In this document: in pieces, positions 955 to 51,969 of the stretch
Layout of the letters: each line of letters opens with the position of its first letter
How positions within the stretch are numbered: the stretch's first letter is position 1
NCBI RefSeq assembly: GCF_037042905.1
Contig: NC_087251.1
Location: forward strand, 22,818,001-22,878,000
DNA: 60,000 nucleotides
Reading direction: 5' to 3'
Origin: Lytechinus pictus
Lineage: Eukaryota
Notes under the pieces: model-generated
What the model was told of the DNA's origin: nothing
Databases searched by the model: none
What the model saw: only the letters and a program-made list of their open reading frames with translations
Program-made: the position numbers and the translations under genes

Positions 955-1190
955 ACTCAAGCCTAGCCTCATTACATTTACATGCCGACGCGCACAGAAA
1001 AATCAAGCCATAGAAGTCGTGTGTTGTGGACACCAGAAGTAGCCAGGAGGCGGAAAGAGTTCCATATGCACCCCCCACCAAAAATAACAAAAGATTGTTG
1101 AGACTTCCACTGTTCCAGTTCGTTCACTTCTTCAGATTTTTCTATCATTTTTTTTACTGCTGCTTACCTTAGTTCACTCACACTAATACG

Positions 1191-1718
1191 TAACCCAGAG
1201 AGCTCCCGCCCGCGCAGCGGGCGGGAGCCCAGAAGCTTACCGTGTATTTTACCATTGTCACCGGACTAGGGTGATTTATGGTCTAAATATTTCTCCAAAT
1301 GAATTGTGAAAATGGAAAGTATACAATTACCACGATTATAAGGATGAAGGTCTAACGAGTGGCAGATTCCTGACATCTGGGCACAGTCTGGAACCTCAAA
1401 AAAACGAAAAGTTCTCTCCTTCTACCCAGTCTCGATCGGCCATTTTGTTACGATTTTTAACAAAAATGGCCGATCGAGACGGGGTAGAAGGAGAGAACTT
1501 TTCGTTTTTTTGAGGTTCCAGACTGTGCCCAGATGTCAGGAATCTGCCACTCGTTAGACCTTCATCCATATAATCGTGGTAATTGTATACTTTCTGTTTT
1601 CACAATTCATTTGGAGAAATATTTAGACCATAAATCACCCTAGTCCGGTGACAATGGTAAAATACACGGTAAGCTTCTGGGCTCCCGCCCGCGCAGCGGG
1701 CGGGAGCTCTCTGGGTTA
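1191..1718. mobile_element. 528-bp foldback/palindromic non-autonomous DNA transposon, copy 2
   Basis: Near-identical to 427-954, same orientation of the central spacer; 9-bp TSD ACTAATACG at 1182-1190 and 1719-1727. Confidence 0.92.
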
Positions 1719-5110: not shown

Positions 5111-5221
5111 CTTTGGTGGTGAAGTACAAAACATAATGCTGTCATTTATTAATGTGATGTGTTAAACTTTACAAACAATATATATTTCCTAATACAGATA
5201 TAAATTCCTGAAAAGCTTTTC

Positions 5222-5466
5222 ATGATGGCTACTTCTGGTCAGCATGTACCTGATTGTTCCAAGGGCTCTGGAGTTCATCCATTTGGACATGAAGTATCAG
5301 TCACACGGGATCAACTCCTCACTGCTTTCTTCAACCATCTATATCTTGGCCAATGGGAGTTAGCAAGTGCATGTGCTTCAAGCTTGGAAAACTTACAGGG
5401 AACTAAGGATCAAGTTGACATTAGAGCTGTACTCCGAGCTATCGTCAGACATCCGCACGGCATCAG
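5222..5466 (+). CDS. ZFYVE26: ZFYVE26 coding exon 1 (acceptor at 5198 implies an upstream non-coding exon)
   Basis: taatacag| at 5198, ATG 5222, HPFGHE/GQWELASAC, donor ag|gtat, phase 2. Confidence 0.9.
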
Positions 5467-11400: not shown

Positions 11401-14400
11401 CTTGTTGGATATTAGACAAAATTTAAGTTATTGTCTTGTTACCTATTTTATTACCCATTTATCTTTTCTCAACCATTGATACTTTTGTAGGCCATTGATA
11501 GCCAAGTATGATGGTGATCTTTGCCTAGAGCAGAAAGCTACAGCCATGTTTCAAGGATCAGATTCTCATTCAGTACTGACGTTGCTTTATCACTTCACAA
11601 ACCTCTCAAAGATAGATCACATGGAAGGGTTACAAATCTTGAACTCTACACCTCAGCTGGGTAAGTTTCCTCTTGTAATTTTAGATATTTTACAAGAGAA
11701 AAGATGAGATGGAGAAGAATATAGAAAGAAATGACTAGATAAAAAAGGAAGAGGAAGGGAAAGGCAAGTATAAAAGGAAAGTACAAAGAGTACACTGGTA
11801 GTATGTGCATCAATGTATTATTATCATTATGATTACACATATGACAATTATTTATTCAGAGGGGAAAAAATATATATTGGCAACAATCTGAACTGCATTT
11901 ATTATTTTATTTATAAATTTAGATTTTGAAAATGGCTATCCCATAGAATTCACCCTTAGATTTCTACAGTAGGGATTAGATACACTCTAATTTAGATTTA
12001 TTATTATTGCTGTTGTTGGTAATATTATATGTAATCTGTGTTAATGTGTATGAAAAATGTATTCTCTGTCATGACATTGCTTTTCCAGAATGGACACGGG
12101 GCAGCAATGGTGATGAAGCTAAGACTGTGAGGTTTGCTGACAGCAAGGAGCGTGTTGACCAAAAGCGAGATTGCACCATCTACAGGAGTTTCCTAGCGAT
12201 GTGGAATGTTACGTTAGCATTACTGCACAGTGCTAATCCAATGAGTAATCACAAGGACCGTGCAGCCTCTAGTCCACCTGCGATATCTGTAGTGTCTCCT
12301 GAGGACCACCATCGATCGAGAACAGGAACTCCTGGAACAGTTAGGAATGGTCATTTGGGGTCTGCAGATAATGCCTCTTTGGAAACAGCAAAGTCTGTAG
12401 ATATTGAAGATGATGATACGAGCTGGCAGACTTGTGTTGTTGGTAGGCTGAGATCAGCAAAGGAACAGATTGCAGAGATTATACCTCTGACATACAGGGT
12501 TGAAATTATAGAGAATCTCTTCTCTGTGTTGTTCGCAAGATATGAAGACATCCAAACTCTTGAGAGTGATGCCATGATGTCTGATAGCGGAGGAGAGGAG
12601 GGCCATGTGGATGAGGAGTGGAACAACATGAGCTTTAACACCAGTCTTGAAAGTGTGGAAAGCCCTCTCAAGGAAGGTTCACTCCTGACTGAGTTCACCT
12701 TCTCAACAATTCTTGAGAAAAGTTCGTCTGTTAGTGTCGACCAGCCTGTAATGAATGGCCAGATTAAAGACAGAACCCAAAATATCATTGAGGACACACT
12801 CACACCTACAATGATTGCTGACAGCAATGTGCTTAAAAATGCTGATATGCATCAGCTGAAATACGGAAAGAGGACCAGCTCTGAGACTACTAACAGTTTG
12901 CAGAGTTATCTGAATCACTTTGAGTCGTCAGTCAACAAGGTCGGTTTCATCACGAATCGAAGGTTCATGCAGGAACTCTTGACAATGCTCAAGGAATGTA
13001 TTGAGGATGTGAATACTGCCAAACTTGCCAATATTGTGTCGAAGGGACAATCCAAAGGGTCATCTGACGAGACCCTCCAATCACATCTGTTGACATCGGT
13101 ACCTCAGGCACATCTTGCCCAGCGTATTGCCCAGCTTACCAAGAGAATCAATGAAGCTCGTTGGCGTTTTCAATTGGTTTCCAGTCATCAAGCCAATGTC
13201 GATGATGAGGACAAGTTTGATGAGAAAGTAGAGGAGGAAGCAGTCATCAAATCTTTCTTTGAAGCCAGAAGCGATGAAAATGGGGAGGAAAAGAAGAAGA
13301 GAAAAAGAACTTCATCTAAACGAAATGGAAGTAGAAGCAGGAGTGCATCAGGTTTGAGATTTATTTCATATTTAACCACCAAAAATATTTTGGAGATATT
13401 TTTCTCAAAGAAATCAAAAGATCCTAAATATATTCATGGACTTACAAACAATTTGAACATATATTTGAATTTCATTATGGATATATGTGTATCTTAAGCC
13501 AGAGTATAGGATAAGCCAGGATATGGAGGGATCTATTAACTTTGGAACTCAATATTTGTGTATATATATACTAATATTATGCCCATTTAAATTGATATGC
13601 ACATTTTGTTGATGTTCACATGAAATCAGTTAAAATTATACTCTAATCAATACGCCAGCTGAAGCTTATCAAGATAGCATTCCTCTGTTGGGGCAACCAA
13701 ACATCTCTATCAAAGAGTTAGCTGCTCATGTTCAGCTTATTGAAAAGTCATGGTTGCCAGTGTCCCCTTAAATATAGTATGGTAACTTTATCTTTTTATA
13801 TTTGGAGTTCAGATTTAGACAGGACAGATTATTTCAAAGAAAAAGTGATCTCCCCCCCAAAAAATTTGAATTTCAAAGATCTTGTAACACCAGTGATTAT
13901 GTGTTATGCAGTATGATGTTCATTACTAGTTAATTAGGAATTATAAAAAATTTGCCAGCTTACTTAGATTTGTTGTGGCTAAAATAATCTTTGTATTCCA
14001 CTTGAATACATGTATTTCACTTCCAGTAATTTCTTTGCCATTACTAATTTCTTGAAGTATATTTATTCATATGTCATCAGCATGCAAACTAACAAACATT
14101 ACACATGACAGAGATGGTATATTACACTTATATTAGCCTCTGTCATAAGACAGTGCAATTAACTCTAATCAATAACCTCACCACATCTTTTTTTAAAGCA
14201 AATGAATGTTAAAATATTTTTTTTTATTTCTAACAGTATCACTTGTTCTAAATGCCTTGTCTTAAAAACCTCATACAATATTATTCTAGGTAAATTTTTA
14301 TTTAAATGAAATGACTAATAAAATGCTAATTTAATTGGCTTATTTAATGTATATAGGTCTAAATTGATTGAATTCAAATAGGGCGAATAATAATGACATT

Positions 14401-17400
14401 CACCACAAAGACTTCATCTTTATGTGAATAGGATGTTCATCTAAAATATGTTATAGATTTAATACAAGGCCATATATTACATGTATATCCTTAGATTTGA
14501 TAGTTGCATTAAAGGTCCAATCTTAAAGGCATAGACTTTGCCACGACTCATACAACAAACAAAAAACAAAACATGCTGGAAATGACTGTGATATCTTAAA
14601 AAAGAGGTATCTCAGACATGCCTAATTTGTGAAAGCAAAATAGATTAATTTGTCTCGTAAGTCATGGCAGCATATTTACCAATAATCTTGGGCCTTAATA
14701 CTGCATTCATTTTTCATATTCATATAATTTGCATCGGTTATCTCACTCATAAATGCATGCCTACAATCTTTTTTATATGCAAACATGTCTCCACCAAATT
14801 AATATTCTATTAATTTTTTTTATGTTTTGTAATGTTCATCAATTACCACAGTCATGCGTGCACATCCCACAATTTCTTTCACACACACCCCTACATGTAT
14901 ATCACCCCTATCAATAAATGGCTTCTGCAAGTTATGTCATTTAGTTGTGTTCCCATGTACTGTTGAATGGACGCTGGAGAAGATTGGTATCACATTTGTC
15001 GTACGTCTTGCCTTTAGGCTGGAGTAGTTCTGAGCCGGGAAGTGGTAACATGTCAACGCAATCCCAGACACACCTGAGTGCAGGTCCGATGTCTGCAGGT
15101 TAGCCATATGTGTCCTGTCATGTCTTGTCTTGTCTTGTAAGAAGCTTTAGTGCAGTCACTGCTTGATAGTAACAATTAATTTCAATTTGGCCAAAATTCA
15201 AAGTTGATAGATTTGCAGCACTTAAATTTTATTTTAGTCTGTAGAATTAATTGATTTATATTAATTGGAATATAGAGTTTCATTTCTGCTTATTTAGTTT
15301 TTTGGTCTTACAGAAACAATTTGTTAACTGTAAAGTATACATGTATACATTGTATGTATATCTATGCCAATGTATCAAATATTTATCTGCAAAATGCTTT
15401 GGTATTTTTTAAAGGGAACATAATTTTGATCATGAATACATCACACTCTTGACACTATAGAGCCTTGCCTCTCTTTGGTACAGTATAGTTACATTTAGCA
15501 TTCACACAAAAACAAGAAAATGTGGCAAAATAATTAATAAAGACCTGAACATTATTATGCCTTAGGTGAAGGGTGAGCTCATGATATATTTTTGTAAAGT
15601 AGTATACTTTACTAACCATGATATATACACAACAAAAAAAGTAAGTCCCCCCTTAACAAACAAACATCAATAATTTCCGAACCAATGCGATTTTTCAATA
15701 TATTTTTACATGAGCGTATAGGTAATTTTATAAGCTACCCTCTGAGTAAATGTTATGGACATATTTTACGTCATGCTTCAGTGAGCACCGTCAGAAGGCA
15801 AAAATGTCATTTTTCAAAAGTCACAAGCCAAATATCATGACTTTGATTCCATTTTATTGGAACTAATTCTACATTCTCATCATGAAAAATAGTCAGAAGG
15901 CTTGTAAAAGGTACTTCATAAAAGACGATACAACTTTTTTGGCTAAATTTCACGGTTGAATAAACAGAAGTCCAAATTTGCTATGATTGGATTTTTTACA
16001 CATTTTTATCAATAAAAATGATAGAATATGATGACAGTTATTTTGGGGAAGAGTATCTTCAACAATATTCATTGTTTCACGGTTCAATGAACATTTATTG
16101 AAAACCAAAAATACGACTTTCAAATATCATAGGCAAGTATTTTTTCATTTTGGTAACTGAAACTGATCTTTTATCAACTTTTTTGTTATGTTCATGACCA
16201 ATTAACATGCTTCAATGATTCAAAGGCGTTTAATTAAACATTCACGCTTGAATGAACATGTATAATGTGATTAACTCTTTTTTTACGTTATTGGAAAAAA
16301 TGCAATTTGTAACTATGGATATCTGTCACAAACCTCCTTGCATGGTTCATTTGATTTGATTTTTACAAAAATCCAGATGATTAATGCATCAGTGAGCACA
16401 CAATATTAGAAAATTATGCAAGTGATAAGAAAGTTCAAGGCCTTGGCCCCACTCTGTGCCGTATCGAATTGTTATTTTGGTGTGCGCACCATTTGGATAG
16501 TGTTACTCCGAAGCCATGTGCGAAGTTTTATGAAATAACTGTTGGCAGAAGTAACAAAAACCGTCCATGAAACAAACCCTCATTTGTTAAAATTTTGACT
16601 TCCTCTCTCATAGACTTGTGTACATTATGGGTGCATATGTTTAAGAATAAGTAACCCCTTATTCAATATGGTGGAACTTTTTTTCAAGGCTGTCTTTAGC
16701 AATATCATTTGGCAGTTATGTTTATCAACCTATCGGCAGAATTCTGTGCAAAAATGAAATCGATTTGTTCATTTATGGATGAGTGAGCACGCATCAAAGT
16801 GGGAAAATGGGTATTTTCAATGTCACAGACTCATTTTAAAGGGTAATAAGGTGAATATTGGGGGCAACTTCGGTTTCAAATGTGACTTTAATTTCTGTTG
16901 CTTTATCATCCATCATTTCTATCACCACACACTTTCCGAACTTTTAACATTTTCATGGTTGAGCGAGCACATTCGAATGCTTAGGAATGAATACTCTTTA
17001 TACTGCATAAATGTATTATTTTCCTAACAATTTCTCACGATCAGTTAGATTTATGTACAAATCAGTGGTGGATCCAGAATTTTAAAATGGGGGAGGGGCC
17101 TATAATAAGGGGAGCCACCAACATTTTCAAATTTTAATATGACCTAACAAGTTGTAGAGGATACTACCAAAAAACCTTATGATGATACGTCACAATACAG
17201 GGGCCGCGGAACGGTTTTCAAAGTGTGGGGGAGGGGCTGAGCCAAAAGTGGGGGAGGGGGCTGACCATGCAAAAAATTACAATTGTATGGTCATTTTTAC
17301 ATTTTTGTACATGCTTTTGGAAAAAAGTAGGGGCTGAGCCCCCCCCCCCCCCCACCCGCTTCCGCGGCCCCTGCAATATTGTGCCCACTCAACCATGAAC

Positions 17401-20400
17401 ATACGATATCAAAATTGTGTGTGGAGTGGCTAAATGATGGATAGTAAAACAGCATTAACACCATAAAATTCACCTAAAAACAACTTTTGCCCAACTTTGT
17501 ATTTGCACAATCTGAAAAACGACTCTTGTGACTTTCAAAAATTGTCATTTTTAATTCAATCTTTAATTACTCATGCATGACTCAACCGATGAATCTCATT
17601 TTCCCCCAGGAGTTGCTTAATGAGTGCAGAAAACCACCTACGAAATATCATATCTCAAAATAATTCCGTTCAAAAGTTACAGCAGTTTGATTTAGGGGGG
17701 ACTTACTTTTTTTGTTGTGTATAGATCAATCATCTCTGAGAGAAAGCAGAATATGAGAGAAGCAGAAAGGTCATATTCTGAAGTTTGAAGTAAAATGAAG
17801 TCAGAAAATCTTCGGCTGTCTGGCAGACTTGCCTCTTCTATAGTAATCATAATGCTATCCCCAAAATATTTTTTTTTTAAATGCTGAAAAAGAAACTTTG
17901 ATTAGTAAAGAGAAAGGCACTATAAGAAACATTATCTTTTTCTCTGACTTTCTCACACTTTATTGGCCAAATGTGATTCTTTCACATGTATATTTGAAAC
18001 GATTGTCAATAAAAATCCCACAAAAATTGAACTGATCATTCCCTTTTCCCATATTTTTCTGTTTCATACAAGTTCAACTAGATTACACGTAGATTCCTTT
18101 TAAGATATTGCCACTTTTAATAGTACATGTAGTTACATTCAAGTTAAAATTCAGCATTGCTTGTAGATGTAACAGTTTCATAGGAAATAGAATCCATTGC
18201 AAACATTTACCAAAGACAAGTGAATATTTTCTTTTTGTAAATGGTCTCAATTTGTTTAATTCATCATAAAAAAAGAAACAAAATGCAATAATCATCCATA
18301 CCCTCATTCGATATCATTATTGATATATTTTTCAAACTGACTGAGCAATGTAAAATAGCTATAGCTGTAGAATAGTTATAACTTGAGTTGCTGATTATTA
18401 TAAGATCCAAAATCCAAGTACATCCTCCGCCAGACTTGCCAGGACCTGTTGACATACATGTATTTTCAGTCATTGTTACTTGATGCTTGATTTCTGAATC
18501 ATTATCATGGCTTTGTTAGGTAATAGCAGCGGCACCGAAAGAAGAAAAAGAAGGAAGCATAAGAAGTGTAGCTCCCATCGAGGATCCATCAGTCCTAAAC
18601 CTTTTCTTCATCATGACAGCAGCATCGTGGCTCAGATGCTGGCCTCAGAGGATACCCTGCTTAGGATGTGCCTCAGAAGGGGAAACTTTGCACAGGCACA
18701 ACAGGTTATGATAAAGATGATCCAACATTTTAATTTCAGCAGTAATTGCAACTTTCTTAGTTCCTTATCCAGAACATTGGTTTAAACCTATAACTATAGT
18801 CTTGTAAAATATGAAGTTTACCTATGGGTAGCCATATGCGACACAGTGGTAGATGTTCATTTTATCAGTACATTTGGCCATCAAACTATTAAGAATGTTT
18901 GGGAATGAAGACTACTTGATTTTTTATCTCTGTTTTGAAATGGGAAAATAGCCCAGTAAACTTAAGAAACATACAGTTAAGATATTTCGGAACGAAATTA
19001 TACCGTGGATTATTAAGATAAGGGTTTTAGGGGATATATATCTGCTTTAAGTCCTTGAATATGTAAGATGAACGTTGTTAGTGTATATCCTTTGTTTTGT
19101 TGTAGGTCATCAAGATATTTGACATGAAGGACAAACCAGAGGTATCTGAAGTTCACTTTGCATCGCACTGGCAGCAGGCTGTTGGAAAACTCAAAATCCT
19201 GGATAAGTCCAAGAAAGGTTCCTCCTCCAGCAGCACTGTTACCTCTACACAGCAGCCTAAGACTGGAGGAATACTTGGAAGCATCGCATCAATTGCTGCT
19301 GCTGGTATTGCATCACTATCTTTGTCCGGTGTCATTGATGATCTACTGAACAGTTCAACCTTACCGATGCTACCTCAGATTGAAGACATCAGTGGAGGAG
19401 TGGTAGCAGGTGCTAGCCCTGGCTCAAGAGGTGGTAGCAGTATGCTGTGGCAACAACTCAATTCAATTAACATTTCTTCTATGATCATTTTTGATCTTGC
19501 ATGCACTGCCAGCCATTCTTGGAAAACCTGCAGCGAGCTATTGGATGTGGCTATGAGTCGTCTCAACGTGGATTCTGTTCCAGAACATGGCAGTCCTGGA
19601 CCTGAAGTGAAACTTACCAGTTCATCTCAGGTTGTGTCAAGCCCCAAATTGGATCAGTCGCAGTCTCTGCTTGGAATATCAGCATTCCTTGGACAGCTAC
19701 ATAACCTGATAAACCCAATCTCTTCCAGTTCAACCGCTTTAATTCGTCCTGAAGTCATGGAGTATTTCCAGCGATGTGCCTTGGATGCTCTCACAACTGT
19801 CTCTGCTCCCTTGGAGCCTTCAACCCTCCGTGCTCATGTTAACTTTGTTCTTGAAGTCCGTAGAGGACTAGAGCTTATGACCAAGGCCCTTCAAGCATAC
19901 CAGGCGGATGAAGAGTGTGGCCTCGCTGAACTCTCTCTCAAGTTTGGAGATAGCCCCAAGCATACCAGTAGTCCTAAACGGGGTGCTCGCCACCCCAGCC
20001 CAAAGCAGAGTCCTACCAAGACTAAGACTAAGCAGAAGGTTTCTGATATTAATCATTCAGTACACCAGCTACTCATTGCTCTTGATAAGAATGTGATGCC
20101 TAGTTTTATGATGGCCTTTCCAAAGAATCGAAGATCTGATGATCAACCAGTTAACCCAGCTAACTATCTTCTGACTCTTTATAACCATCTCAATGTCTTG
20201 GCTTCTCTTGCTCAGGATGCACAAGGTTGGCAACCAGGTAAGACAGTGTTTGGACTGCTAGGGATATATAACAATGTATTTCCAACATTCAAAATGTGCA
20301 TTCATGCCTTCAACAAAACATGAGAACCTAAGTTATTTAAACATAAAAAAAATATATTTATGGTGTCCATACTATATCAAGCCTGAAATGGCCACCTTAT

Positions 20401-23400
20401 ACAAAAAGTTAATAAATGAAATGATTACTTGTCTTAGAAGCTAAGTATAATTCATTCACTTATAAAATTGAAGTGATCAATCTAACTGTTTAACAGGTAA
20501 TATTTGCTCCTGATTCATGAGAAGTTTATTTCTGACTCTGTTATGCCTATATGACACACATAGATTGTAGACTTATTGGAGTGTTAATATATATTCTTCA
20601 TTTCAGTGATGTGTAAAATGGTTAAAGTGTTATTTTATTTTGTTAATTTTCATTAATGCGGTACATTCTCGCTCACTTTCATCAGATAAGCCTAATATAT
20701 ATATATACATTATTTATATGAAGGATTGATCAATTTCTTATACCGTCTCGGGAGACAAACCATTTATTTGTTTATCCAATATCATCCTTTATATTACAGG
20801 GAGTGAGAGGCAGTTAAAAGTGGAACGAGACCTGTGTCAAAACCCATTTAGTATCCTAGCAGAAAGTCCCAGTCTCTTACTTGGTCGGCTGATGTTTGCT
20901 AATCAGATTCCACCTGTCAGGTATGTACTTGAACTTGACCTTTTACACTTAGTTACATGTACATGTATTTCTATGTTTCTATGTGCAAAGTTAATTGAAA
21001 ATCAAAGGTGAATATTTTAAGATACCATCTTTTGGATTTGTGTTATTTAGCTGTCCATCAAAATTATGTATGACCCTTCAAATAATTTTGATGTGAAGTA
21101 GAGTTCTTCTTACTTGTAAGTAAATGTTACTCTATTTGGTTTTCTAATAATTGCAATGTAATTGTGGCAGGAATAATTGTCGCATTTGAAATATGCACTT
21201 ACAGGTTACAAAGTTATTTTGTGGGTAAGAATCTGTTTGGCTCTTCGAATTCAAATGGAAACTTAAACCTTACCTTGAAAATCATCACTAGTAGGTGTAT
21301 AAAGGGTCAGTCTTTGCTGTTAAAATATAGGATGTGAATCATATGCCATGCAATTTTGCAGGTACTTTTAATTTATTCTTGTGTGACTTTTATCCTTGTG
21401 AATATTGATTAATTAGCATGATGACATTTTCTTTATCTCCTCTCTACTCCATCCCAAACCAATTCATAGCTTATACTTCTCTATTGTTTATGTTTGGATT
21501 ACTGTGTTTTAAACAAACAATGTTTTACTCTGTTTCTCTGTATACACTTTCAGGTTAGAGAGTGTTGCTAGTGAATTGAGGTTAAACCTGATTCAAATCA
21601 TCATGCAGAGCTGCTGTCCTGCCATCCCTATGATGCCCCACTCTTCTGTCATTGATACACCTGCCCCACCCCATACAGTAGATAATGTGACTGTACTCAA
21701 TGAAGGGGGCGTGGCAGGGGAGTGGCCTCACCCTGTGAGGAGACCATGTGTGGTCGTTGAAGAGCTTCTCACCAAGATCATCTCTCTCATGATGAGTGAG
21801 TTACACATTTCTTCCAGTGTGTATTATTCATCTAAACTACCTTGAAGTGGTTTCATTCCATTCTTTTTAATTTGATTGAGTGATGGTAATAAATCTTCTA
21901 CATCTCTCTGTCCTGTCCCATATTATTATCAGTTTGGGCAACATGCTTTTGCATTCAGTGATCCCACTCATGAATAATATTCTTCTACATATGTATCACT
22001 CCACTTCTCTCGAGTCCTTCATAGTACTTACTGAAAACAAAAGTTTGTATCCTTATTTGATGTTAGCTGTTTTTAGATTAGGATTTTTATGCCTTCGCCC
22101 ATTGTAGTTAATTGTCAGAGGCATAATGAGTTATCCATTTATCTGCATGTCCATTTTCATTCACATAATAATTGAAGAACCCTGTTACAGATCTACTTCT
22201 TACTTGGCTTTTGTATCCATGGTGATCTGATTTAATTTGGGGTCATGTCAAAGGTCATGTTAAACCTGAAAATATCTTGTTGTTCTTGTTGTAATTAAAT
22301 AACCATTTGACTCATCCATAGGGATTAATGATCTTATTACATTTTTGGCCCATTATGGTTAAAATTCATTTTGTAATGAAATTATCTTAGTCTCTTGATA
22401 AGTGAAGAACATGCTGAGGATTCAACTTCAGACTTGGCTCATGTATCCACATCCGTAATCTTCACAACAACTGTATTAAACACCTCCCTTGAGAATAATC
22501 CTTCTCTTCATAATTAATTTCTGAATTCCTCTCTCTTTCTTTCAGAGCATGTATCTGGTGAGGGATCAGATGCTGCCTTTGAGCTGAGTTCTGCTGCTGG
22601 TGCATGCTCTACCCCTGAGTACTGGGACATAGTCATGTCTACAAGGGAACTCAAGCATGTAGACATGGATCTCCTACAAACCAATGAAGATAAGCTGTGT
22701 TTCTTCACCAATCTCTTCAATCTCATGCTTGCCCATGCTGCTTTGCATCATGCCACACTTCAGATGAATGAAAAGGTAGGATATGTTATCACATAACTCA
22801 TTATCATGGTTAGTAAGAAGGTATTGTTACAAGCTACTGAAGTAGGGGAATTATATTGGTTGAATATTGGTTGAGTGCACATTTGTTGTAGAATCCTATT
22901 AAATTGTATGATTCTTTATCAGGTGCCCTGTTATATAGAACTTGTTATCAATGGTTATTGTTAAGGGCTACTGAAATGGTACAATTTGATTGGTTGAGAG
23001 AGGATCATACGTTTGATTTAAAATTTAGTTTGTGTGCTTTATAGTGTGATCGAGCAGTGATATATACAGAAGCGCCATGGTGTAGCGGTTCTGACTCTCA
23101 CCTTGTATCAGAGGGTCGTGTGTTCAAATTCCGCCATGGCCTAGCATCCTTTGGCAAGGCGTTAATCCACACTTTGCCACTCTCACCCAGGTGCTAATTG
23201 GGTACCGGTAGGAAACAACCGTCATTGTGGTTGGTTTAGCAAGTGTGCGCCTAACAGGCTGCTAGAAAGCTATGAATCCAGTGACAGGGTAATGATAATT
23301 GTGAAGCGCTTTGAGCAGTCGTAGATTGATAAAGCGCTATATAAAAGCCAATTATTATTATTATACCCAGGGGTGTTGTGCTGGCCTAGCCCCCTGGATT

Positions 23401-25332
23401 CCCATTTCCATTTAGACGTAGCACTGTATATTTTGATATTTTAACATACTTATTTTTATTCACATCAACTTTTTACAGGGACCATGTGGTTCAAGTTTGC
23501 AACAGTTCAATCATCATCAATTATATGTATTATTCTTCTTATTTAATGCAGTATATTATGAGTTTTTGCCAAAAGAGTATTATTTTTTATATCTCTTATG
23601 ATTCAGGGCAATACCTTTACACTGGGTCATACGCGGCATTACTCTCTTGGGCGTGGGGCTACTAACCCTGGGTCTATCATGCTGACCTCCCCTGGTATCA
23701 ATAGTGGAATGGTCCTTGACCAACTTAGTTATCTGTCTAGCATGGCTTATAGAGTTGGTCAAATGGGGGTCATCAGGTAAGTTTCTGAAAATATGCTTAT
23801 GAATTCACCTACAAGTATGTCAAGATGTAGTTGAAAATAAATCTTGTTATGGAATAGAGTGAGGTTATTGGTGTTGACTGGGATATACCTACTTACTGCA
23901 CAAGTCTATAGATATTTCAGAATTCAGTAGACAACAGATTAAGATTATGGAATGTTAGTATTAAGATTAGTATTGACTGAACACATTTGTTTTATGCATG
24001 TTTCATCCACTTCTATTTTCATTTGAATATTCTGTGAACATCTGTATGATCTAGACATTTCCAGCAAGTAAAAAATGGGTCAATGTCTTGTTTGATTGGT
24101 TTTGCAAATTCTCTTGAACACTGTCACTTGCATGAACAGGTAGTCTGTTGGAATGTATATTGATTGTTTTACGTATTGGTTGAAAGTTTACTTTTCACAT
24201 GCTTGCCAAAAAGAATTTTAGGAGTTACATGTTCCAGTTGCATTTGTTCAGTGAAGACAACTGGTTTGTGTAATGCATGAATGATGTAGCCCTTATGGAC
24301 ATCTATTAAAATATCTATTTTCTCTGTATCTCACAGTGCATTTGATCTCCATTATGTCATTCTGCGATCATCATTACCTGTCCCTTTAGTCTTTGGAGAT
24401 ATCTTACAACATAGACTTCATGGTATGTCAATAGAAAATGTAATTGTCATGTCAATTTGAAAGTCTGCCCTGTATCTATTTCATTTAAATTTAGTAAATA
24501 GTTATATGTGCATTTTCCAAATCTTCACTTGTAAATTTGAAAAGCACCATAAATTATATGTAGCAGGGCAAAGGTCCTCTGACAAAGTAAACAAGTAAAT
24601 ACAATAAACTGAGATGAAAATAGGCAGAATATAAAAATATACAGAATGTGGTTTTGAAATGATGGTGATTTATATTTTAGTTATCCACACAAATGCTCAG
24701 ATTTTAATCTAAACCAATATGCAGAAATTCTATATCTACTTATTCTCATTGACATTCAATCGTCTTTTGACAAAATATTTGTACTAAAGTGTTATGTCGC
24801 AATTATTCATCTTCATTCAAGATGTCCAAGTGTCTGTGATGACAGCAGTTTCTAACTCATAGCAACAGCTAGTTTTTAATCCCCAGCTCCAACCCACTGC
24901 TTTGGTCATGGATTTCTTGTTTGCATGCATCGTAATGATGTATGCGATGGCATTGTCACTGAGTAATCTATTCTTTTAGCATTACTAGTTTTAATACATG
25001 TTTCTTTTCTAGTATTGGGAGAGGATGATCCATGGTTGAAGTACATCCCATCCCCTGACTCTAGAATCACCTTTGTGTTTTGCAATGGGTCTGCCTCATC
25101 ACCACGTCTCAGGGTTAGTTCATTGCATACTTTGTATTTATCCTCTTGTGATTTACTTAATATCTTACATGTGATAATGTATACCTTCCATTTATTTTAT
25201 AAGAATAGATTTTAAATGCGACTTTCCATGTTCATCAAAAATTAACAAAGTGGTTAATTTTCGTGGAGTTTGGTTTTACTATTATTGTCTCGCCTGCATA
25301 GCAGAGCGAGACTATAGGCGCCGCTTTTCCGA

Positions 25333-25363
<31 letters not shown>

Positions 25364-28300
25364 GGCGACGGCGGCGGCGGCGGCGGCGTCAACATCAAAT
25401 CTTAACCTAAGGTTAAGTTTTTGAAATGACATCATAACTTAGAAAGTATATGGACCTAGTTCATGAAAATTGGACATAAGGTTAATCAAGTATTACTGAA
25501 CATCCTGCCTGAGTTTCAGGTCACATGACCAAGGTCAAAGGTCATTTAGGGTCAATGAACTTAGACCATGTTGGGAAAATTATTTTCAAAATCTTAACCG
25601 AAGGTTAAGTTTTTGAAATGACATCATAACTTAGAAAGTATATGGACCTAGTTCATGAAACTTGGGCATAAGGTTAATCAAGTATTAGTGAACATCCTGC
25701 TCGAGTTTCAGGTCACGTAACCAAGGTCAAAGGTCATTTAGGGTCAATGAACTTTGGTCAAGTTGGGGGTATTTGTTGAATTACTATCATAACTTTGAAA
25801 ATTTATGGATCTAGTCCATGAAACTTGGACATAAGTTTAATCAAGTATTAGTGAACATCCTGCCTGAGTTTCAGGTCACATGACCAAGGTCGAATGTCAT
25901 TTAGGGTCAATGAACTTTGGCCAAGTTGGGGGTATTTGTTGAATTACCATCATAACTTTGAAAATTTATGGATTTAGTTCATGAAACTTAGACATTAGGT
26001 TAATCAAGTACCACTGAATATCCTGTGCGAGTTTCAGGTCACATGACCTGATGACCATGGTCAATGGTCATTTAAGGTCAATGAACTTTGGCCGTGTTGG
26101 GGGTATATGTTAAATTACCATCCTAACTCTGAAAGTTTATGGATCTAGTTCATAAAACTTGGACATAAGAGTAATCAAGCATCACTGAACATCCCCTGTG
26201 AGTTTCAGGTCACAAAACCAAGTCAAAGGTCAGTTAAGGTCAATAAACTTAGGCCATGTTGGGGTAATTGTTGAAGTGCCATCATAACTTTGAAAGTTTA
26301 TGGATAGAGTGAATGAAATGTGGACATGGGTGTAGTTGACAGTCTTAAGTCTCTGTTCAAATGTCATTTATGGTCAATGAACGTGGTATTATGTCATTAT
26401 ATGAATGATGTTTTTGTTAATGATTATTTTATAGTAGTTTTCAAAGTTAGCACTGCTGCTATATCAAATTGCGTAATGCAGGCGAGACTGCCAGAGGCGT
26501 TCCACTTGTTTTATAATTTGTTATATGTTATTATGTAAGATCATTAGTTTATTTTTTTTTTATTTTTTTTTTTAGAATAATAATCCTCAAAAGATTGTCA
26601 CTGTCTCTCTCTTTTTTAATCCTTCCTTATGCAGTAATTGATTGCAAATATAATCTATATTATTTGTGTATCAGGCCTTTTCTGAATAATTGATGATTTA
26701 ATTTGGAGAGTTTGTGTTTGTAAGATTAGAAATGGTTAGAATTTATTTGATGTATAGTTACTACTTTGATTATTTTCATCTCAAGACTCAAATATAAATA
26801 GAGTTCATAAATTAAATTAATTATTAAAGATTTAACTGTTGTCTCTTGATTGTATCCTTGTAGGTACTGAGAGTAGATGATTTGGATGAACAGTTGACTC
26901 TAGCAATGCAGAATCATCTTGAGGCTGGAGTAAGGGTGGATGAAAAACTGAATCAGGTATGAATTGATATTTGCCTCTTCTAAGAATTTAATGGTTCTGA
27001 TAAGGTTTTATTGTTCAAAGTAATATGAGAATTATGTTAGGATTAAGGTAGGTTTTTTTGTTTTTTTGGGGGTGGGCATTATTTGTAATTTTCCAGGGGA
27101 GCAATTCTTGCTGAACCAATGATTTGGAATCTACATGTATATGATAAAACCTGACATACACCAATGTTCATGTTGAATTAAACAGAGGAGGTAAATAACA
27201 ATGTTAAAGGATCTCAAGATCTTTTACAAGGTAATCCTGCTTTTGGAAATGAAGTAATTTTAAAGCTTCAAAGACATTTTACATTGTGATATTTCATAAT
27301 CTTGAAATGAAGGCAACATTCACTTATATATTGCTTATGAAAGTAGGCCTGCTCATGATGAATAACTTTGCAACCCCTCTAAAGTGGTGAAATAATTCAG
27401 TCTATTTTTTAGAAGTAGTAATGTTGTATGCATTTTTTTAACTGATCATTCGTGTTTGTTTGTCTGCATAGATTATCATTCCTCAATCTCTTGAATGGTT
27501 CCGCAAGGACTTCACTGGTTCCACCCTACCAGTCAATGTAGATCATGGTAATATCTACATGGGTCTACTGAGGGTAATCACTCCTCATGTGTCTCAGTAT
27601 CTAGGTGATAAGCTAGAGGATTATACCATGAAGTACCTACCAAGGCATATTGAACTTGAGAGCAAGGCAGAACTGGTCAATGGGGCTGAAGATGGAGCAG
27701 GTATTTGGCGAAGAATTTATCTAAACATTAGGTTTTCATTGTTCAGTAAGTCAGGGAAAAGTGATTTGTTTTAAGGAGCCTCAACAGGTTTAGTGTTATG
27801 TGCAGCACTTTGTAACCACAAAGGCACAAATTGTGATATAGTGGTTTTGACAGGTATGAAAATGACATTTAACCTTTTAAGATTGAGGAAAATTGTAACT
27901 GAAATTCATATAGATATTATATTATCTTGATAGATTATATATTTATGCGTTATTTATTTATTACTTTGATTGATTTCACTGTAATATTTTCTATGGTCTT
28001 TCTACTCAATATTTATTGACAGACTATCCTCCAAAAAAGAAACCTCCATTTCAGCGGTCTAACTCAATGAGGTTCAAGATAATGGTTACACCTTATGACC
28101 GAACCTTCAGGTATCGCTTCTATGGTCCATCCGATAACGCAGTACAACCTTTAACACTGAAACGTAGACTCTCTGTCCCAGATAACTTTGACTCCAGTGG
28201 ACTTGGCTGGAGTTTGATAGATGCACCTGCAGCCGAACCTCCTTTCTCAATGACAGAGCCAACCTTGAAATACCTTCACTCAAAGTCCAAACTGGTGGCA

Positions 28301-31300
28301 TCGCTGGCAGGCGTGGTCAGTGCAGGGATCGGTGAGAACACTGATGCCTTTGCCAAAGATAAATCCATTGATGAAGATATGCTGTCCTCTAGTGTTGGTA
28401 GTCCTGCAAGTCTTGTTTTTGAGGATACCTTTGGGAGTGATAGGACATACAATCCTAAGTTATCAACCATGACCAAAGTCCTCCAGCATTTGGCTGGGTA
28501 TCCCATCATGCAATACTATGTTCAGTCATTCTTCTCAGAAGTGTTGTCCATAGCGGGTAGCTCAAAAGGCAATGACTGTTTAGATGAGAAGGAGGTCAGA
28601 GCGAGTCTTCTTGCCGATACACGCTCCAAGGTAACTTTAATCTTACAATCCACACAGTCTTTTGATCTGTTTTCATGTTCAAATTTATGAAATTCACCAT
28701 TGATTTATCATTTATAAAATACTCATAGATAAGTGTAGCTTGTAGAAGCAAAGGTAAAGTAATGTGCACATGATCATTCCTATCATAGTTTATTATTTTT
28801 AGGCAAACTGGTAAATGCATTTGTTGATCCATCAATATATGGAATGTGTCTGCTTGAGGCAGCACTGCAGCAGAATATATTCAAAATTTCACTTCTTTGA
28901 TATTGTATATGAAGTATAACTTTTGATATATGCAGTCAGAAAGAAGTCTTAGAACTCTTGTATTGCTTTGTCAAACATTTGGTTCACAGATTATTGGCCC
29001 TTAAATTACATTTTCTTCTTGTTATTTTTACATGCAATATTATTGAAATCAAGTGCCCTGGGTCTAAACGGAGTTAATTCCCTGGTGTCCTTAGGCAAGG
29101 CATTATCATCTATCATGATCCTTGAAGAAAACCAGGGCCCTGTCTTACAAAGAGTTATGATTGATCCAATCAACCGTAACTCTATTGAAATCCATCAGTG
29201 TCATAATTTTTTTAAAGGAAATTTGCACAGTGTCCTTTGTAAACAAAGAGAAGCACAATGAGTTTTCAAGAAAACAATGAATGCATGAATATACATCATA
29301 GCTGGAAAATATTTTGAACAAACATGCATAATAGATGTTGACGTTGCTGGCCATCCATAGTTGTGATTGATCGGATCAATCACAACTCTTTGTAAAACGG
29401 GCCCCTGAAGCCATCAAATCTCTGGTTGCTTTGATAACAAGGCGTCATGTTTTTTTTAACATTCAGGTGATAGTTACCACCTTTGAACCTCAAAATCCTT
29501 TTCTTTTTATGACATTTTTCTGAAGGAGGTTCTAGGTGTCCTGAAAGAAGCAGTAGAGTTGCTTGTATCCAGCTGCCAGTGGGAAGCAGTCATGAAGCTT
29601 GTGGATACTATACATTGCATTGGTGGGACTGAAAGCTACACTGTCATCAGGGACTTTGCTGCATACTGTGCTGGTAACCAGGTCAAGGCAGGTCAGATGA
29701 CATCATGCTCCAAACCAACATGGCAGTGTTTGTTGACAGTCAGGAATAAGGTATGATTAAAGGTTTTGGTGGAAGTAATACTGGGATGAATTTATCATAT
29801 TGGTTGGAAGATTTGATGTATTTTCCTGAGTTATTATTGGATCATGATTGTGGTTATTAGTTCTGTTCATCCGTTTTATGATATATTGTAACCATTTCTT
29901 GATTATTGGTGTAGTGACATAAAATAATAAATTATGAAAACAAGTCTGAAGTTTGAGACTATCAAACCAAGAAGATAATTTAAGCGCATTTTTGTTCCAC
30001 AAAGAGGTAGAATTAATGTTCATTGGTCAGTACATAGAATATCTGCCTCACCAACAGGCTCTATCTATGAGTCAATCTCTGGTTGGTTAGTGACATCCAA
30101 CCCACCTACATGTATAACTATGACCCCATTGGTGAAGACATGGGGCATGTATGCAAATCAATTTCCAGGTCTACTAATTCCAAGAAGTACGATGAAGTGC
30201 CAAGCACCAATATTGCTTGCATCAGAAAGAAAGAAGAAGTTTCACTGTTGAGAAAATATTCATACTGTAAGGATAGAAAATTAAAGGAGAATGAAACCCT
30301 TGAAACCAGCTGAATCCATATTAAAGAGAAAAATCAAAGAAACATATTGTTGAAAGTTTGAGGAAGATTGAATGAATAATAAGAAAGTTATGAGCATTTG
30401 AATATTGAGATCACTAATGCCATGTAGATCCTCCCATTGGCAATGCGACCAAGATCTGTGATGTCACACACGTACAACTCCCTCATTACTTTAGTACTTA
30501 TTTCACTTATATTCTCAATTTTATAGAGTCTATCACAAGGTGAGGTGTTCTCTTTATGAGAGGACAAGTACAGAGGTTTCACAACATTATATCATTGATG
30601 AATCGTTTGTCATAAGATTAGAATGAGCAAAAAGAGATGTTTTGGGGTATATTTTCAGTGTCCAAAAGGGGAGAGTTGTTCATCTGTGACATCATAGATC
30701 TTGGTCGCATTGCCAATGGGAGGATCTCCATAGCATTAGTGATCTCGACATTCAAATGCTGATAACTCTTTTATTGCTAGTCCTATTTTACTCAAACTTT
30801 TGTTGATCTTATTCTTTGATTTTTCGGCTTTCGCAAAAGCTAACTTGCTCCAAGAGTTTCATTCTCCTTTAAAGAAAGTTGTGGAAATTAGGAGAGGTTA
30901 AACAATCGCAAACCACTCGCTCAACCACTTGTTCATTCACTCGCTCACTCACTTAATCAGTACTCTCAGCTTATGGTCCTCACTCAACTTATGATTATTT
31001 CTTACTGAATCACTTATTACCGCTCAACTTGGATATGGTGTTATTCTTATGAACGATTAATGTCACATTCCGCATTTATGTCAACAATATTTGTGAATAT
31101 ACTACGAGAGTGAAATAAACGAATGTTCATGTGTCATACAAAGGAGTGATTGATTGATTTATAACGGAGTGCGTTTCGATGTTGACTAACGTTTACCAAG
31201 TTTCTGTAGCTTAATCGTGCAAGAAGCTACAATGGGCTTTTTTACCACCAAGGAATCTTGCGATAATTGATCATCCCTACACTATTGATTTACTTTTTGA

Positions 31301-34300
31301 TATCATTACATTACTGACTCAATGTTTGAATAACCCAAGTACTGTCAATCTGTTGCTAAAAACATCTCTGTTCAGCTGTTTGCCAAGCTGCCATCAAGAT
31401 TACTTCTGCAAGGTGCATGAAATAAGGTCCAGAACCTGCCCTAGCTTGGACTATACCAAAATTCAAAACTAGTATTTTTATTATAGAACATGTATACCTA
31501 TGTTGATTGTTTTCCTATTTTTTGTCATTAGATACTGAGAGACAGGGCAGTGCTTGCTTCCTTAGATAGTCTCCCTATTGAAGATGCCCTGGAGTTGCTA
31601 GAATGTTGTGTGTTGGACAATAGGAAAGACTCTCCCTTGAACAATATCCTGCACACAAAATTTCAGCAGCTGAAGATGTACAGAAAGGTAATTAGAACTT
31701 ATTGTATTCATTAATGGCTATAATATTATTTTTTCATTCTGGTCAGTGGATTATATCAGTCTTACAAGCACACCAAGTATTCACCTTTCGCCATTTCCTG
31801 GGGGCTTTTCCTTTCTGTAATTAGATGTGGTTCCCATGATGGTGTTCAAACTATGATAATTTTTCATTATACCAGGCATCCATTCAACACTTGGGACCTG
31901 CTTCATAAACTTGTTACAAGAATAAATTTGCAATAATAGATAGCTATTGATATTGTTTGATTTTGATTGGCTGATTGTAAATTTTTAATACAAATTGTGC
32001 ATTTGTTATTAATAACAAGTCTTTTTAAGTGGGACCTGGGTGAGAAATTGGCAAATATGCAATATTTTTTAGCCAACATTGCAAGAGACAGTCTCGGGAC
32101 TTATAAAATGATAAATATAAATAATGATAAATCCATAATTTATTGTTCGAAATAGACATGAAATGAAATACTCCGAAAATTTGCTTTACCCACTTGATCG
32201 TGGGCCCGGCAGCCGCTGTGCAGCGCCAGATCGACGAGGCTCTATCCCTTTAATCGTTGAACGCCAAACAGGGTAGCAGCAACTCCCATCTTTTAACGTC
32301 TTTTGGTCTGACGTGGCCGGGGTTTGAACCCCCGACCTCCCGGTTGTGAGACGGACGCTCTACCAACTGAGCCAACACACCGGTTATCCACTGAGCCTCT
32401 TAATTTATGCTTCCTTGTGATTCTTTTAGTATTGTGTGACTACATGTTAATACATTGATTGAAAGAATTTCTAATGGGTGCGGAGGGGGAGACTGACCAA
32501 TATTCACCGGTGTGTTGGCTCAGTTGTTAGAGTGTCCATCTCACAACCGGGAGGTCGGGAGTTCTAACCCTGGCCACATCAGAACAAGACGTAAAAAGAT
32601 GGGAGTTGCTGCTGCCCTGTTTGGCATTCAACATTTAAGGGATAGAGCTTCGTCGATCTGACACTGCACAGTGCCTGCCGGGCCCATGATCAATTGAGCA
32701 AAATGAATTTGTGTAGTATTTCTATTTGAGATTTGTATTTTGAACAATAAAATATGGATTTTCGTTTCATTTTCATTGTTTTTTATTCTTTACAAAACTA
32801 AAACAATAGAATGAAAATTAATGAGTAAAGGGCTCTAAATTATACATGCTATTCTATTTTAGGGGGGGGGGGTGTAGGTTAGGTATGTTCTGTAAGGTTA
32901 ATGTTATAATGGCCCTGTAGTATTAAAGATACAATTGATTGTTCATTTAGTATTATTGTCAGTTCATGTCAATCTTATTATCAAAGAGTTACAGTTGATT
33001 GAAATATCAATTGTATTTATTTTCATGCTACAACTCAAAGATCTAGTACTTGAACTTTGTGCCAATTGGCTTGAATGTAAGGGTTGGTGTACAATTTATT
33101 ACCATAAATTTGCTTGATTTTTTTCTTATGTTATAATATGGTCACTAATTTGTTTACCCATTAGATCACATTCTATGCTATGCAATACTCTCCACCGCTC
33201 TCACTTGGAGTTCTTCAGGGAGGAAGTACTCCCTCTGACCTCTCGGAGGTCATTCGACCCCTATGTACATGGCAGGATGTCCAGGATGCTTCTAAAACCA
33301 GTCCTGATAGTGTTCTCAAGCTGCTGATGTCTGCTTCAGACTTTGATCTGGCCAAGGATTGGGCAGAGCTCCATGGAGTTATTGATGATTACCAGCAGGT
33401 ATATAGGCATTTATGCAAATAAATCCTGTATTATTAGAAGGGGTATTTTAAATTTGATCGAGAGAAACACTGAGAAATCATAAATAAGCATTGGAATTGA
33501 AATGTATTTTGAAGATGATTATTTTTGCTTTGTGATTAAGAGTGGCATAAAAAACATGATTATCGCATTGGATAAGTAATATATTTTGGGGAGGAGAAGT
33601 TTAGTATCAATTTAGAGTGATATATATAAATGATAACTTAATAATTGAGTGATTAATAGTTTTGTGATGACTTCTTGTAAAGATATTATTTCCTGTGAGA
33701 TCATGTGAAGAGGCTTGTGAGTGGATGAGTGGATGGAGCTATAAGGAAATTAGATTTTTTTTTCTTGACAACTTGTTGAGCATGTATATTAGTAAGTCAT
33801 TTTGGAATTTCTGTGTGCAAGTGTATCTTACATCATTGAATGCTTTATTTTGTATTTGCTATAAGCCTGTAATGACTTTATGTTTCATAGGTAAAGACAA
33901 ACATATATGATAGGGAAGGAAATGCAGACATATAACCCTGTCCTTTATATCATTGCCTTGGTGCAACAATGCCCTAAGTGCCAAATTTCTAGGAATCACA
34001 TGATACATTAGCACCCTTACTCAGTTTTCTAATGTGTGGAGCCTAAGGATTCTTATTTCAATGTGTCAAATTGATATGTGGTGCCAATGGCATGCTTGCT
34101 CCATCACAATGTTACCATGCTTGTCTAACATCAATGACATGTGAATTTCTCTCTCTCTGACCTCTCCTAGACTATCCTAGTCAACCAGTTGGAACATTTA
34201 TTATGCAACAGTTGTAACAACCTTCAGGTTTACCAGGTATGTTCACATTCCATCATTGGACAAGACAAAAACAGTACAGAAATATTGAAAGAATCACAAT

Positions 34301-51938: not shown

Positions 51939-51969
<31 letters not shown>

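What the first reader, a model, noticed from the sequence alone, without database searches (positions are those of the whole stretch)
22546..28130. Spastizin carrying an embedded DUF547-like domain with an altered Cys motif
Seen: exons 14-20 splice in frame inside ZFYVE26 and encode, in order, VDMDLLQTNEDKLCFFTNLFNLMLAHAAL, AYRVGQMGVISAFDLHYVILR, DSRITFVFCNGSASSPRLR, LDEQLTLAMQNHL, IPQSLEWFRKDF and VTPYDRTFRY. Knowledge: this follows the DUF547 (PF04784) motif series eklAFwiNlYNal.iH / y.igg..sl.diEh.iLR / DpRiHFAlvCgs.ScP / ld.qL / l.Wy..DF / pYdW. Human spastizin is 2539 aa and I know of no such domain in it; this protein is ~3361 aa. Here the usual second Cys (S-C-P) is Ser and the His of RIHF is Thr. 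Inference: an invertebrate spastizin has an extra, possibly catalytically degenerate module that vertebrates lost, linking an uncharacterised domain to the AP-5/SPG11/SPG15 lysosome-reformation machinery.
Basis: partly seen in the sequence, partly recalled or inferred. Interest (0 to 1): 0.75.

Follow-up and report, generated by a model that had tools for sequence, protein, structure and literature searches.

The report
Spastizin's lost DUF547 module
This invertebrate's version of the human paraplegia protein spastizin carries an extra domain of unknown function, about 300 residues long, that many invertebrate groups share but vertebrates, beetles and mosquitoes lack; it has lost the family's conserved cysteines and likely acts as a non-catalytic binding module on the lysosome-reshaping coat.

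Summary
Real. The DUF547 motifs lie on GT-AG exons that splice in frame inside one ZFYVE26/spastizin gene; transcript contigs join a spastizin exon to the first DUF547 exon. Two exons hit Pfam PF04784 independently. The same module sits at the same site in spastizins of echinoderms, a hemichordate, amphioxus, molluscs, an annelid, a priapulid, a spider, a crustacean, crickets and a wasp; sharks, bichir, frog, human, beetles and mosquitoes lack it. It is therefore likely ancestral in bilaterians and lost at least twice; non-bilaterians were not sampled. The amphioxus module folds confidently (pLDDT 89.5) with no PDB match. Both canonical Cys are lost, not one (His 0/28, Cys1 1/28, Cys2 0/28, against 61/61 each in bacteria). 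And the His-to-Thr and S-C-P-to-S-S-P changes also occur in plant MIP1-type DUF547, so they are not spastizin-specific. The module does not track AP-5. Databases already auto-annotate PF04784 on these orthologues; no paper found discusses it, and this scan had not noted it before. Function inferred only. Interest 0.45.

The parts
5204..55263 (+). ZFYVE26/spastizin (SPG15) gene, coding span (ends approximate; not every small exon was defined)
   Evidence: ORF list; tblastn colinearity with five annotated orthologues 5258-55257; human 8yad_C hit
19106..20237 (+). large solenoid exon upstream of the module
   Evidence: on the same transcript contig as the first DUF547 exon (X1 record 2)
20800..20920 (+). 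solenoid exon, first half of the upstream anchor (human about 1190-1210)
21554..21795 (+). exon with the upstream anchor (human about 1206-1237) and the first helix of the module (from about 21747)
   Evidence: junction 21795/22546 contiguous in contig X1 record 2
22546..22775 (+). module exon with the F-x-x-N-x-x-N-x4-H helix; Pfam PF04784 positions 5-29
   Evidence: Atlas: 29 of 30 hits in DUF547 clusters
23607..23776 (+). module exon: variable loop and the Y-x-V-G-Q-x-G hairpin
24337..24422 (+). module exon corresponding to the canonical S-L-N-D-I-E...ILR stretch, acidic residues partly lost
25013..25113 (+). module exon with the altered H-F-A-x-x-C-x-x-x-S-C-P motif (Thr 25069, Cys 25081 at position -1, Asn 25084 at Cys1, Ser at Cys2); Pfam positions 81-106
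26864..26956 (+). module exon: L-D-E-Q-L helix
27472..27700 (+). module exon: I-P-x-x-L-x-W-F-x-x-D-F and C-terminal helices
   Evidence: junction to 28023 contiguous in X1 record 3
28023..28630 (+). exon with the last strand of the module (ends about 28120) and the downstream solenoid anchor
   Evidence: (records 3 and 4)
29526..29750 (+). next solenoid exon
   Evidence: in frame; junction 28630/29526 not shown directly by reads
42123..43140 (+). FYVE domain, split over two exons
   Evidence: PF01363 18.7 and 54.2 bits
48750..48926 (+). conserved C-terminal solenoid exon used as the orthologue query

Best explanation
The window encodes a spastizin in which a DUF547-family module of about 300 residues is inserted in frame into the alpha-solenoid; the module is likely ancestral to bilaterians and lost in vertebrates and in beetles and mosquitoes, and it likely works as a folded, non-catalytic binding module rather than as a cysteine enzyme. 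Shown: splicing, family assignment, insertion site, distribution in the sampled proteins, loss of the His/Cys/Cys motif. Predicted: a compact autonomous fold. Inferred: spastizin is docked with SPG11 on late endosomes and lysosomes through FYVE and PI3P (established for the human complex); the module would loop out of the solenoid just after the residue matching human 1237 and offer an extra, dispensable protein-binding surface that tunes recruitment or assembly of the coat independently of AP-5. Its partner is unknown.
For: Splicing and expression. Family: Pfam on exons and on orthologues, 18 of 35 proteins scanned, 21.5-65 bits; profile-profile 97.8%, E 7e-13, 186 columns. Distribution: 40 of 79 proteins of 1100 aa or more score 90-376 bits, 39 score under 0 or nothing (16 of the 40 built the profile, many rows are isoforms, several negatives are fragments). 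Site: 323-410 aa between two anchors in 6 module-bearing proteins, 57-83 in 5 vertebrate-clade proteins, 17-25 in 2 beetles and 1 mosquito; Priapulus against human leaves 517 versus 227 residues between matched stretches. One origin: 21 modules form one clade (100/99) whose groups follow animal phyla. Constraint: 29% mean identity against 25% for the flanking solenoid in 12 orthologues. Fold: pLDDT 89.5, pTM 0.90, same order of elements as the bacterial model. Non-catalytic: His 0/28, Cys1 1/28, Cys2 0/28 against 61/61 each. Protein rather than lipid ligand: net acidic in 7 of 7. Context: other eukaryotic DUF547 domains ride on membrane-associated proteins (plant UCHIGAWA at the plasma membrane; DEP-bearing class IV glutaredoxins; an Entamoeba PTEN).
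Against: No partner, localisation or phenotype was tested; the binding role rests on elimination and analogy. Repeated loss shows that the module is dispensable, which also fits a near-neutral spacer. No structural neighbour gives a function (best Z 5.7, rmsd 5.0, 119 aligned; Foldseek none at E<=0.001). The fold was predicted for the amphioxus orthologue (37% identical to the window's module), not for the window's own protein. No cnidarian, sponge, tunicate or choanoflagellate full-length protein was identified in the sample, so the age of the fusion is a minimum. Asn, Asn, His and Tyr stay invariant or nearly so and could form a different functional site. RNA depth is low (about 1-6 reads), and the junctions 22775/23607, 23776/24337, 24422/25013, 25113/26864, 26956/27472 and 28630/29526 were not displayed read by read.
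Confidence: 0.6

Rival explanations
1. The module is a structural passenger: an old insertion kept only because it must fold so as not to disturb the solenoid, with no ligand of its own.
For: Lost at least twice without losing the gene. Most invariant positions are Phe, Gly, Pro or helix-capping types. Long branches in arthropods. The six internal exons total 909 nt and could be skipped in frame.
Against: Kept across at least seven phyla at slightly higher identity than the flanking solenoid (29 versus 25%); a passenger that is this easy to delete would be expected to be lost or to decay more often.
Confidence: 0.2
2. The module keeps a small-molecule-binding or catalytic site built from residues other than the bacterial Cys pair (the N-x-x-N-x4-H helix and the Tyr hairpin), shared with plant MIP1-type DUF547.
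For: Asn 25/25, Asn 23/25, His 25/25 and Tyr 25/25 in the rows that cover them; the same helix motif is present in plant proteins and in the genome's stand-alone paralogues.
Against: The other polar invariants of the bacterial family (Tyr of N-x-Y-N, Glu, Arg, His of the R-I-H motif) are replaced. No enzyme fold match. Whether these residues face a pocket could not be read, as the tool returns no coordinates.
Confidence: 0.13
3. The module is a thiol/redox or metalloid sensor like the cysteine-pair DUF547 proteins of bacteria and class IV glutaredoxins.
For: Bacterial members keep both Cys (61/61); of five loci picked by eye, three have an arsenosugar-type glycosyltransferase gene next door (two over cut-off, one truncated ORF just under) and one an FAD disulfide oxidoreductase. 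Six of 28 modules have a Cys one position after Cys1, and the window one position before.
Against: Cys2 0/28 and Cys1 1/28; several orthologues have no Cys in the motif. 56 of 59 bacterial proteins have an N-terminal hydrophobic stretch, so their pair may be an exported structural disulfide that is irrelevant in the cytosol.
Confidence: 0.04
4. The DUF547 exons are a separate nested gene or a gene-model artefact.
For: Only some junctions were displayed in the RNA data.
Against: One contig runs from 19360 through 21795/22546 at the exact predicted cDNA positions; no frame break; independent annotations in many species show the same fusion at the same site.
Confidence: 0.02

Closest known systems
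Human spastizin / SPG15 / ZFYVE26 (PDB 8yad chain C; bioRxiv 10.1101/2024.06.14.598999)
   Same: Solenoid-FYVE-solenoid layout; colinear orthologue; C-terminal exon matches residues 2036-2091.
   Different: The human protein (2539 aa) lacks the module; vertebrate-clade proteins have 57-83 aa at the site.
Annotated invertebrate ZFYVE26-like proteins (e.g. Antedon XP_071963696.1, Branchiostoma XP_019625924.1, Glandiceps XP_077991490.1, Haliotis XP_046355808.2, Anabrus XP_066995944.2)
   Same: Same architecture DUF547-FYVE-TPR_ZFYVE26, same insertion site, same loss of the Cys pair. The window is one more member.
   Different: Nothing essential; module identity to the window is 19-40%.
Plant MIP1-type DUF547 proteins (Lzipper-MIP1 PF14389 + PF04784; e.g. 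Arabidopsis AT2G23700 UCHIGAWA)
   Same: Thr for His, S-S-P or S-D-P for S-C-P, and a C-terminal P-Y-x-x-x-F-R-Y strand; 13 of 60 fetched loci also have the Cys shifted one place earlier, as in the window. Sister group in the best tree (98/93).
   Different: Stand-alone proteins with a leucine zipper; 43 of 60 loci keep Cys1. The sister relation is not secure: both stems are long and the alternative is not rejected (p-AU 0.054).
Canonical DUF547 (PF04784): exported bacterial proteins, class IV glutaredoxin-DEP-DUF547, and two stand-alone paralogues in this genome (G000 C13, C6)
   Same: Same profile and same predicted order of helices and strands.
   Different: These keep H-F-A-x-x-C-x-x-x-S-C-P (61/61 bacterial rows; both paralogues); the spastizin module has lost it and has longer loops.

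Membership tests
ZFYVE26/spastizin | FYVE domain (PF01363) between two solenoids | tested here: met
   54.2 and 18.7 bits on two exons; colinear with orthologues
ZFYVE26/spastizin | Conserved C-terminal solenoid homologous to human SPG15 | tested here: met
   E 1.6e-11 to 8yad_C; long top hits are named ZFYVE26 and carry PF25569
ZFYVE26/spastizin | Binds SPG11 and PI3P on late endosomes/lysosomes | not testable with these tools
   Known for the human complex; not tested for this organism
DUF547 (PF04784) | Pfam score above the gathering cut-off of 27 bits | tested here: inconclusive
   The window could be scanned only exon by exon: 20.3 and 19.3 bits. 14 of the 18 orthologues with a hit pass the cut-off
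DUF547 (PF04784) | Profile homology over the whole domain, motifs in order | tested here: met
   hhalign 97.8%, E 7e-13, 186 columns; 16.6 bits against 2.1 for the best shuffle; Atlas 29 of 30 hits
DUF547 (PF04784) | Same predicted fold as a canonical member | tested here: inconclusive
   Both models are confident and share the order of elements; no direct superposition was available
Canonical Cys-pair DUF547 (bacterial, glutaredoxin-DEP type) | H-F-A-x-x-C-x-x-x-S-C-P with both Cys | tested here: not met
   Window T/N/S at the His/Cys1/Cys2 positions; orthologues 0/28, 1/28, 0/28
Plant MIP1-type DUF547 | T/H-F-A-L-x-x-G-x-x-S-S/D-P motif and C-terminal P-Y-x-x-x-F-R-Y strand | tested here: met
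Plant MIP1-type DUF547 | Lzipper-MIP1 (PF14389) N-terminal domain | tested here: not met
   Present in L115 and L131; no hit at E<=0.01 in any spastizin scanned
Plant MIP1-type DUF547 | One clade with the plant proteins to the exclusion of animal stand-alone DUF547 | tested here: inconclusive
   98/93 support, but p-AU 0.054 for joining the modules with the C6 paralogue; thin eukaryotic sample

The most novel reading that the evidence does not exclude
The ancestral animal SPG11-SPG15 coat had a third functional arm: a cysteine-less DUF547 module of an unsolved fold that binds a conserved membrane-side partner, the same kind of partner that brings plant MIP1-DUF547 proteins to membranes. Every model organism in which spastizin has been studied happens to have lost it, leaving a 60-80-residue remnant after human residue 1237. 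Finding the partner would give the first function for DUF547 and expose a forgotten input into lysosome reformation.
Probability: 0.25. Interest if true: 0.72.

Novelty: new variant of a known kind. Interest (0 to 1): 0.45.

Why it matters
The textbook solenoid-FYVE-solenoid picture of spastizin comes from vertebrates, which turn out to carry the reduced form; most sampled invertebrate phyla have an extra domain at a defined site of a protein mutated in hereditary spastic paraplegia. It gives DUF547, a family with no solved relative found and no function in the papers searched, a concrete cell-biological setting and tractable hosts (echinoderms, amphioxus, crickets). The limits: it is already visible in automatic Pfam annotation, it is dispensable, and it does not alter the human mechanism unless a partner is found.

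Tried and rejected
Word-based homologue searches with single exons found nothing, because only proteins up to 2000 aa were searched; the word-free search gave the orthologues (348 hits, best 150 listed, only those of 1100 aa or more analysed). No indexed run was on record as RNA (no RNA holder listed); the laid runs were informative, but intronic repeats filled the joint table. Sequence searches of the PDB with the flanking exons or the bacterial profile gave no hit below E 0.96. Foldseek found no match for either model, and the wide search gave only helical-bundle noise for the amphioxus module; this does not show a new fold, and the wide search of the bacterial model was not obtained. A second Atlas look-up with a whole module was not obtained. 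The own-genome Pfam search missed the window's exons and found two stand-alone paralogues instead. NCBIfam has no model for these domains. A shared intron position with plant genes was considered and rejected: by eye, the plant intron falls two codons earlier in the S-S-P segment. Coupling to AP-5 was rejected. No complex prediction was run, as no candidate partner exists.
Full report
Observation. The quoted peptides are in the window on the + strand, five within single exons and one across a junction. Nine exons from 21554 to 29750 have AG/GT ends and join into 661 codons without a stop. The surrounding gene is spastizin (ZFYVE26/SPG15): FYVE lies at 42123-43140, a C-terminal exon matches human 8yad_C 2036-2091 at E 1.6e-11, and five annotated orthologues align in order from 5258 to 55257, module exons included. 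The nearest relatives are echinoderm proteins: a starfish protein is the top hit for the C-terminal exon (74%) and a crinoid is nearest for the module.

Is it DUF547? Of 14 exon or ORF translations scanned, two hit PF04784, at profile positions 5-29 and 81-106, with 20.3 and 19.3 bits; each is under the 27-bit cut-off. A profile of 62 bacterial members scores the spliced region 16.6 bits; the best of 1000 shuffles scored 2.1. The Atlas placed the first module exon with DUF547 clusters in 29 of 30 hits, with a recognition value below its threshold, so this is weak alone. A profile of 61 bacterial domains aligns with the 28-row spastizin alignment at 97.8% probability, E 7e-13, over 186 columns. 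The domain assignment is secure.

Is it spliced into spastizin? In four runs laid on 18300-33500, strand-specific reads of two runs cover the exon bins at about 1-6-fold on the gene's strand and are absent from an intron-only bin. One 1820-nt contig covers 19360-20234, 21550-21795 and 22546-22773; its positions 1241 and 1242 match the predicted cDNA exactly, and its length ends inside exon 25013-25113 if the three following exons are included (those three are inferred from length and depth, not displayed). Another contig joins 27700 to 28023. That run is only guessed to be RNA, but its contigs skip introns. The junctions 25113/26864, 26956/27472 and 28630/29526 were not displayed; they rest on frame and on orthologues.

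Distribution. The word-free search gave 348 hits, of which 150 were listed. Pfam finds PF04784 in 13 of 18 and 5 of 17 long proteins and in four further spastizins; 14 of the first 18 pass the cut-off. Named carriers are a crinoid, a starfish, a hemichordate, amphioxus, bivalves, gastropods, a cephalopod, the annelid Owenia, Priapulus, a spider, a mantis shrimp, a cricket, a locust and a wasp; named non-carriers are sharks, bichir, a frog, two beetles, two mosquito genera and the euglenid Entosiphon. A profile of 16 modules splits 79 proteins of 1100 aa or more cleanly: 40 score 90-376 bits and 39 score under 0 or nothing; the window, left out of the profile, scores 270. These counts include isoforms, several fragments that start past the site and one repeat protein that is not a spastizin. 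Between two conserved anchors there are 323-410 aa in six carriers, 57-83 in five vertebrate-clade proteins and 17-25 in two beetles and a mosquito. For human, the upstream anchor is 1190-1237, the frog protein aligns to human over its whole length, and Priapulus has 290 residues more than human between matched stretches. The 21 modules in the tree form one clade (100/99) that groups by phylum. On a quick tree of the C-terminal half the minimum is three changes, which fits one gain, a vertebrate loss and a loss in beetles plus mosquitoes; the count itself cannot tell gain from loss. No non-bilaterian animal or tunicate was identified in the sample, and Drosophila was not tested.

The motif. 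In 61 bacterial rows His, Cys1 and Cys2 of H-F-A-x-x-C-x-x-x-S-C-P are invariant, and both stand-alone paralogues of this genome keep them. In 28 spastizin rows (some near-duplicates) the counts are 0, 1 and 0. In register the window has Thr, Asn and Ser at these places, and its Cys lies one position early, so both Cys are lost. The Glu and Arg of the N-D-I-E...R stretch are mostly replaced as well. The change is not peculiar to spastizin. A pattern scan of metagenome contigs gave 115 stretches, of which 80 were fetched and 60 encode DUF547-like exons of plant type; two full ORFs carry Lzipper-MIP1 and PF04784 at 138 bits. Of the 60, 57 have Thr for His, 43 keep Cys1 and 13 have the Cys shifted as in the window. 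The pattern was partly recalled and excluded Cys2 by design, so this shows existence, not frequency. In the best tree the modules are sister to the plant proteins (98/93), but both stems are long and joining them with the C6 paralogue is not rejected (p-AU 0.054).

Structure. AlphaFold2 folds a bacterial domain (pLDDT 93.1) and the amphioxus module (301 aa, pLDDT 89.5, pTM 0.90) with the same order of helices and short strands. Neither has a Foldseek match in the PDB; the wide search gives at best Z 5.7, rmsd 5.0 over 119 residues, within the noise for helical proteins. In 12 orthologues the module is as conserved as the solenoid around it (29% against 25% on both sides; 40% after FYVE), and it is net acidic in 7 of 7 counted.

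How it most likely works. Human SPG15 coils with SPG11 into an arch that binds PI3P through FYVE and remodels endolysosomal membranes, with AP-5 bound to the N-terminus of SPG11 (10.1101/2024.06.14.598999; abstract, sections 5 and 10 and passages seen; PMC3744948, passages). The module is a folded insertion in that solenoid. It has lost the residues that could do thiol chemistry, is acidic rather than basic, and is conserved but dispensable. I read it as a non-catalytic protein-binding appendage that tunes recruitment or assembly (inferred; about 0.6 overall, about 0.9 for the architecture and history alone). It does not track AP-5: insects are reported to lack AP-5 (10.1101/2020.03.08.982389, passages), yet crickets and a wasp keep the module, and vertebrates have AP-5 without it. 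Other eukaryotic DUF547 domains also sit on membrane-associated proteins: Arabidopsis UCHIGAWA at the inner-lateral plasma membrane (10.64898/2026.08.17.745151, passages), DEP-bearing class IV glutaredoxins (PMC13621322, passages) and an Entamoeba PTEN (10.1101/2021.11.29.470399, section 5; its legend says DUF547, its text DUF457). This is analogy, not a test. Bacterial members mostly look exported (56 of 59), and some lie beside arsenosugar-type or disulfide-reductase genes (five loci picked by eye), but the module has lost the Cys pair that such a role would need.

What is known. The architecture is already in automatic annotation: 8 of 9 hits carry a precomputed PF04784. I found no paper that discusses it: 'DUF547' gives 28 papers (26 listed, none on spastizin by title or abstract start), 'PF04784' three plant papers, 'unknown function 547' two, and the 30 listed of 227 papers with two of five terms hold no DUF547 or PF04784. 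These are listings, not whole texts; most subscription journals and all supplements were unseen, and a domain figure there could show it. This scan's index holds no finding with all three words.

Verdict. Real and transcribed; a new variant of a known protein, unremarked in the papers searched but routine in databases; function inferred. Interest 0.45.

Noticed in passing
window 410-1725: Upstream of the gene, two long hairpins (arms of 256-263 nt, 96-98% complementary, 16-nt loops) repeated at 764-nt spacing; looks like a tandem foldback element.
   Followed up: partly
window 23050-23330, 25280-26540, 28947-29453, 29961-30974, 31989-32495: Intronic interspersed repeats that attract hundreds to thousands of RNA reads at 90-95% identity, so from other copies; the one at 25280-26540 is strongly strand-biased and begins with a GGC run.
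   Followed up: no
window 51838-52147: Long GAT-type microsatellite in an intron, giving spurious poly-Asp, poly-His and poly-Met frames.
   Followed up: no
L001:51-347 and L001:1516-1899 (G000 C13): The stand-alone DUF547 paralogue on C13 has the first ten codons of one exon twice, about 1.4 kb apart; the upstream copy then diverges: a partial exon duplication or an alternative exon.
   Followed up: no
L003, L067, L069 (G000 C6): A second stand-alone DUF547 gene with the canonical Cys pair split by an intron between the two Cys.
   Followed up: partly
L005, L009, L011, L051, L052: Bacterial DUF547 genes directly beside a TIGR04283 arsenosugar-type glycosyltransferase, TrsS/Tes-like or other radical SAM genes, or an FAD disulfide oxidoreductase.
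   Followed up: partly
P0143, P0106, P0093, P0103 (vertebrate-clade spastizins, between the anchors): The 57-83-residue vertebrate linker holds a helix-like segment at the place of the module's first helix; it may be a remnant, but the module profile does not score it.
   Followed up: partly
P0141/P0164/P0165, P0001, P0071, P0194: Several public gene models split spastizin near or inside the module, which hides the full architecture.
   Followed up: no
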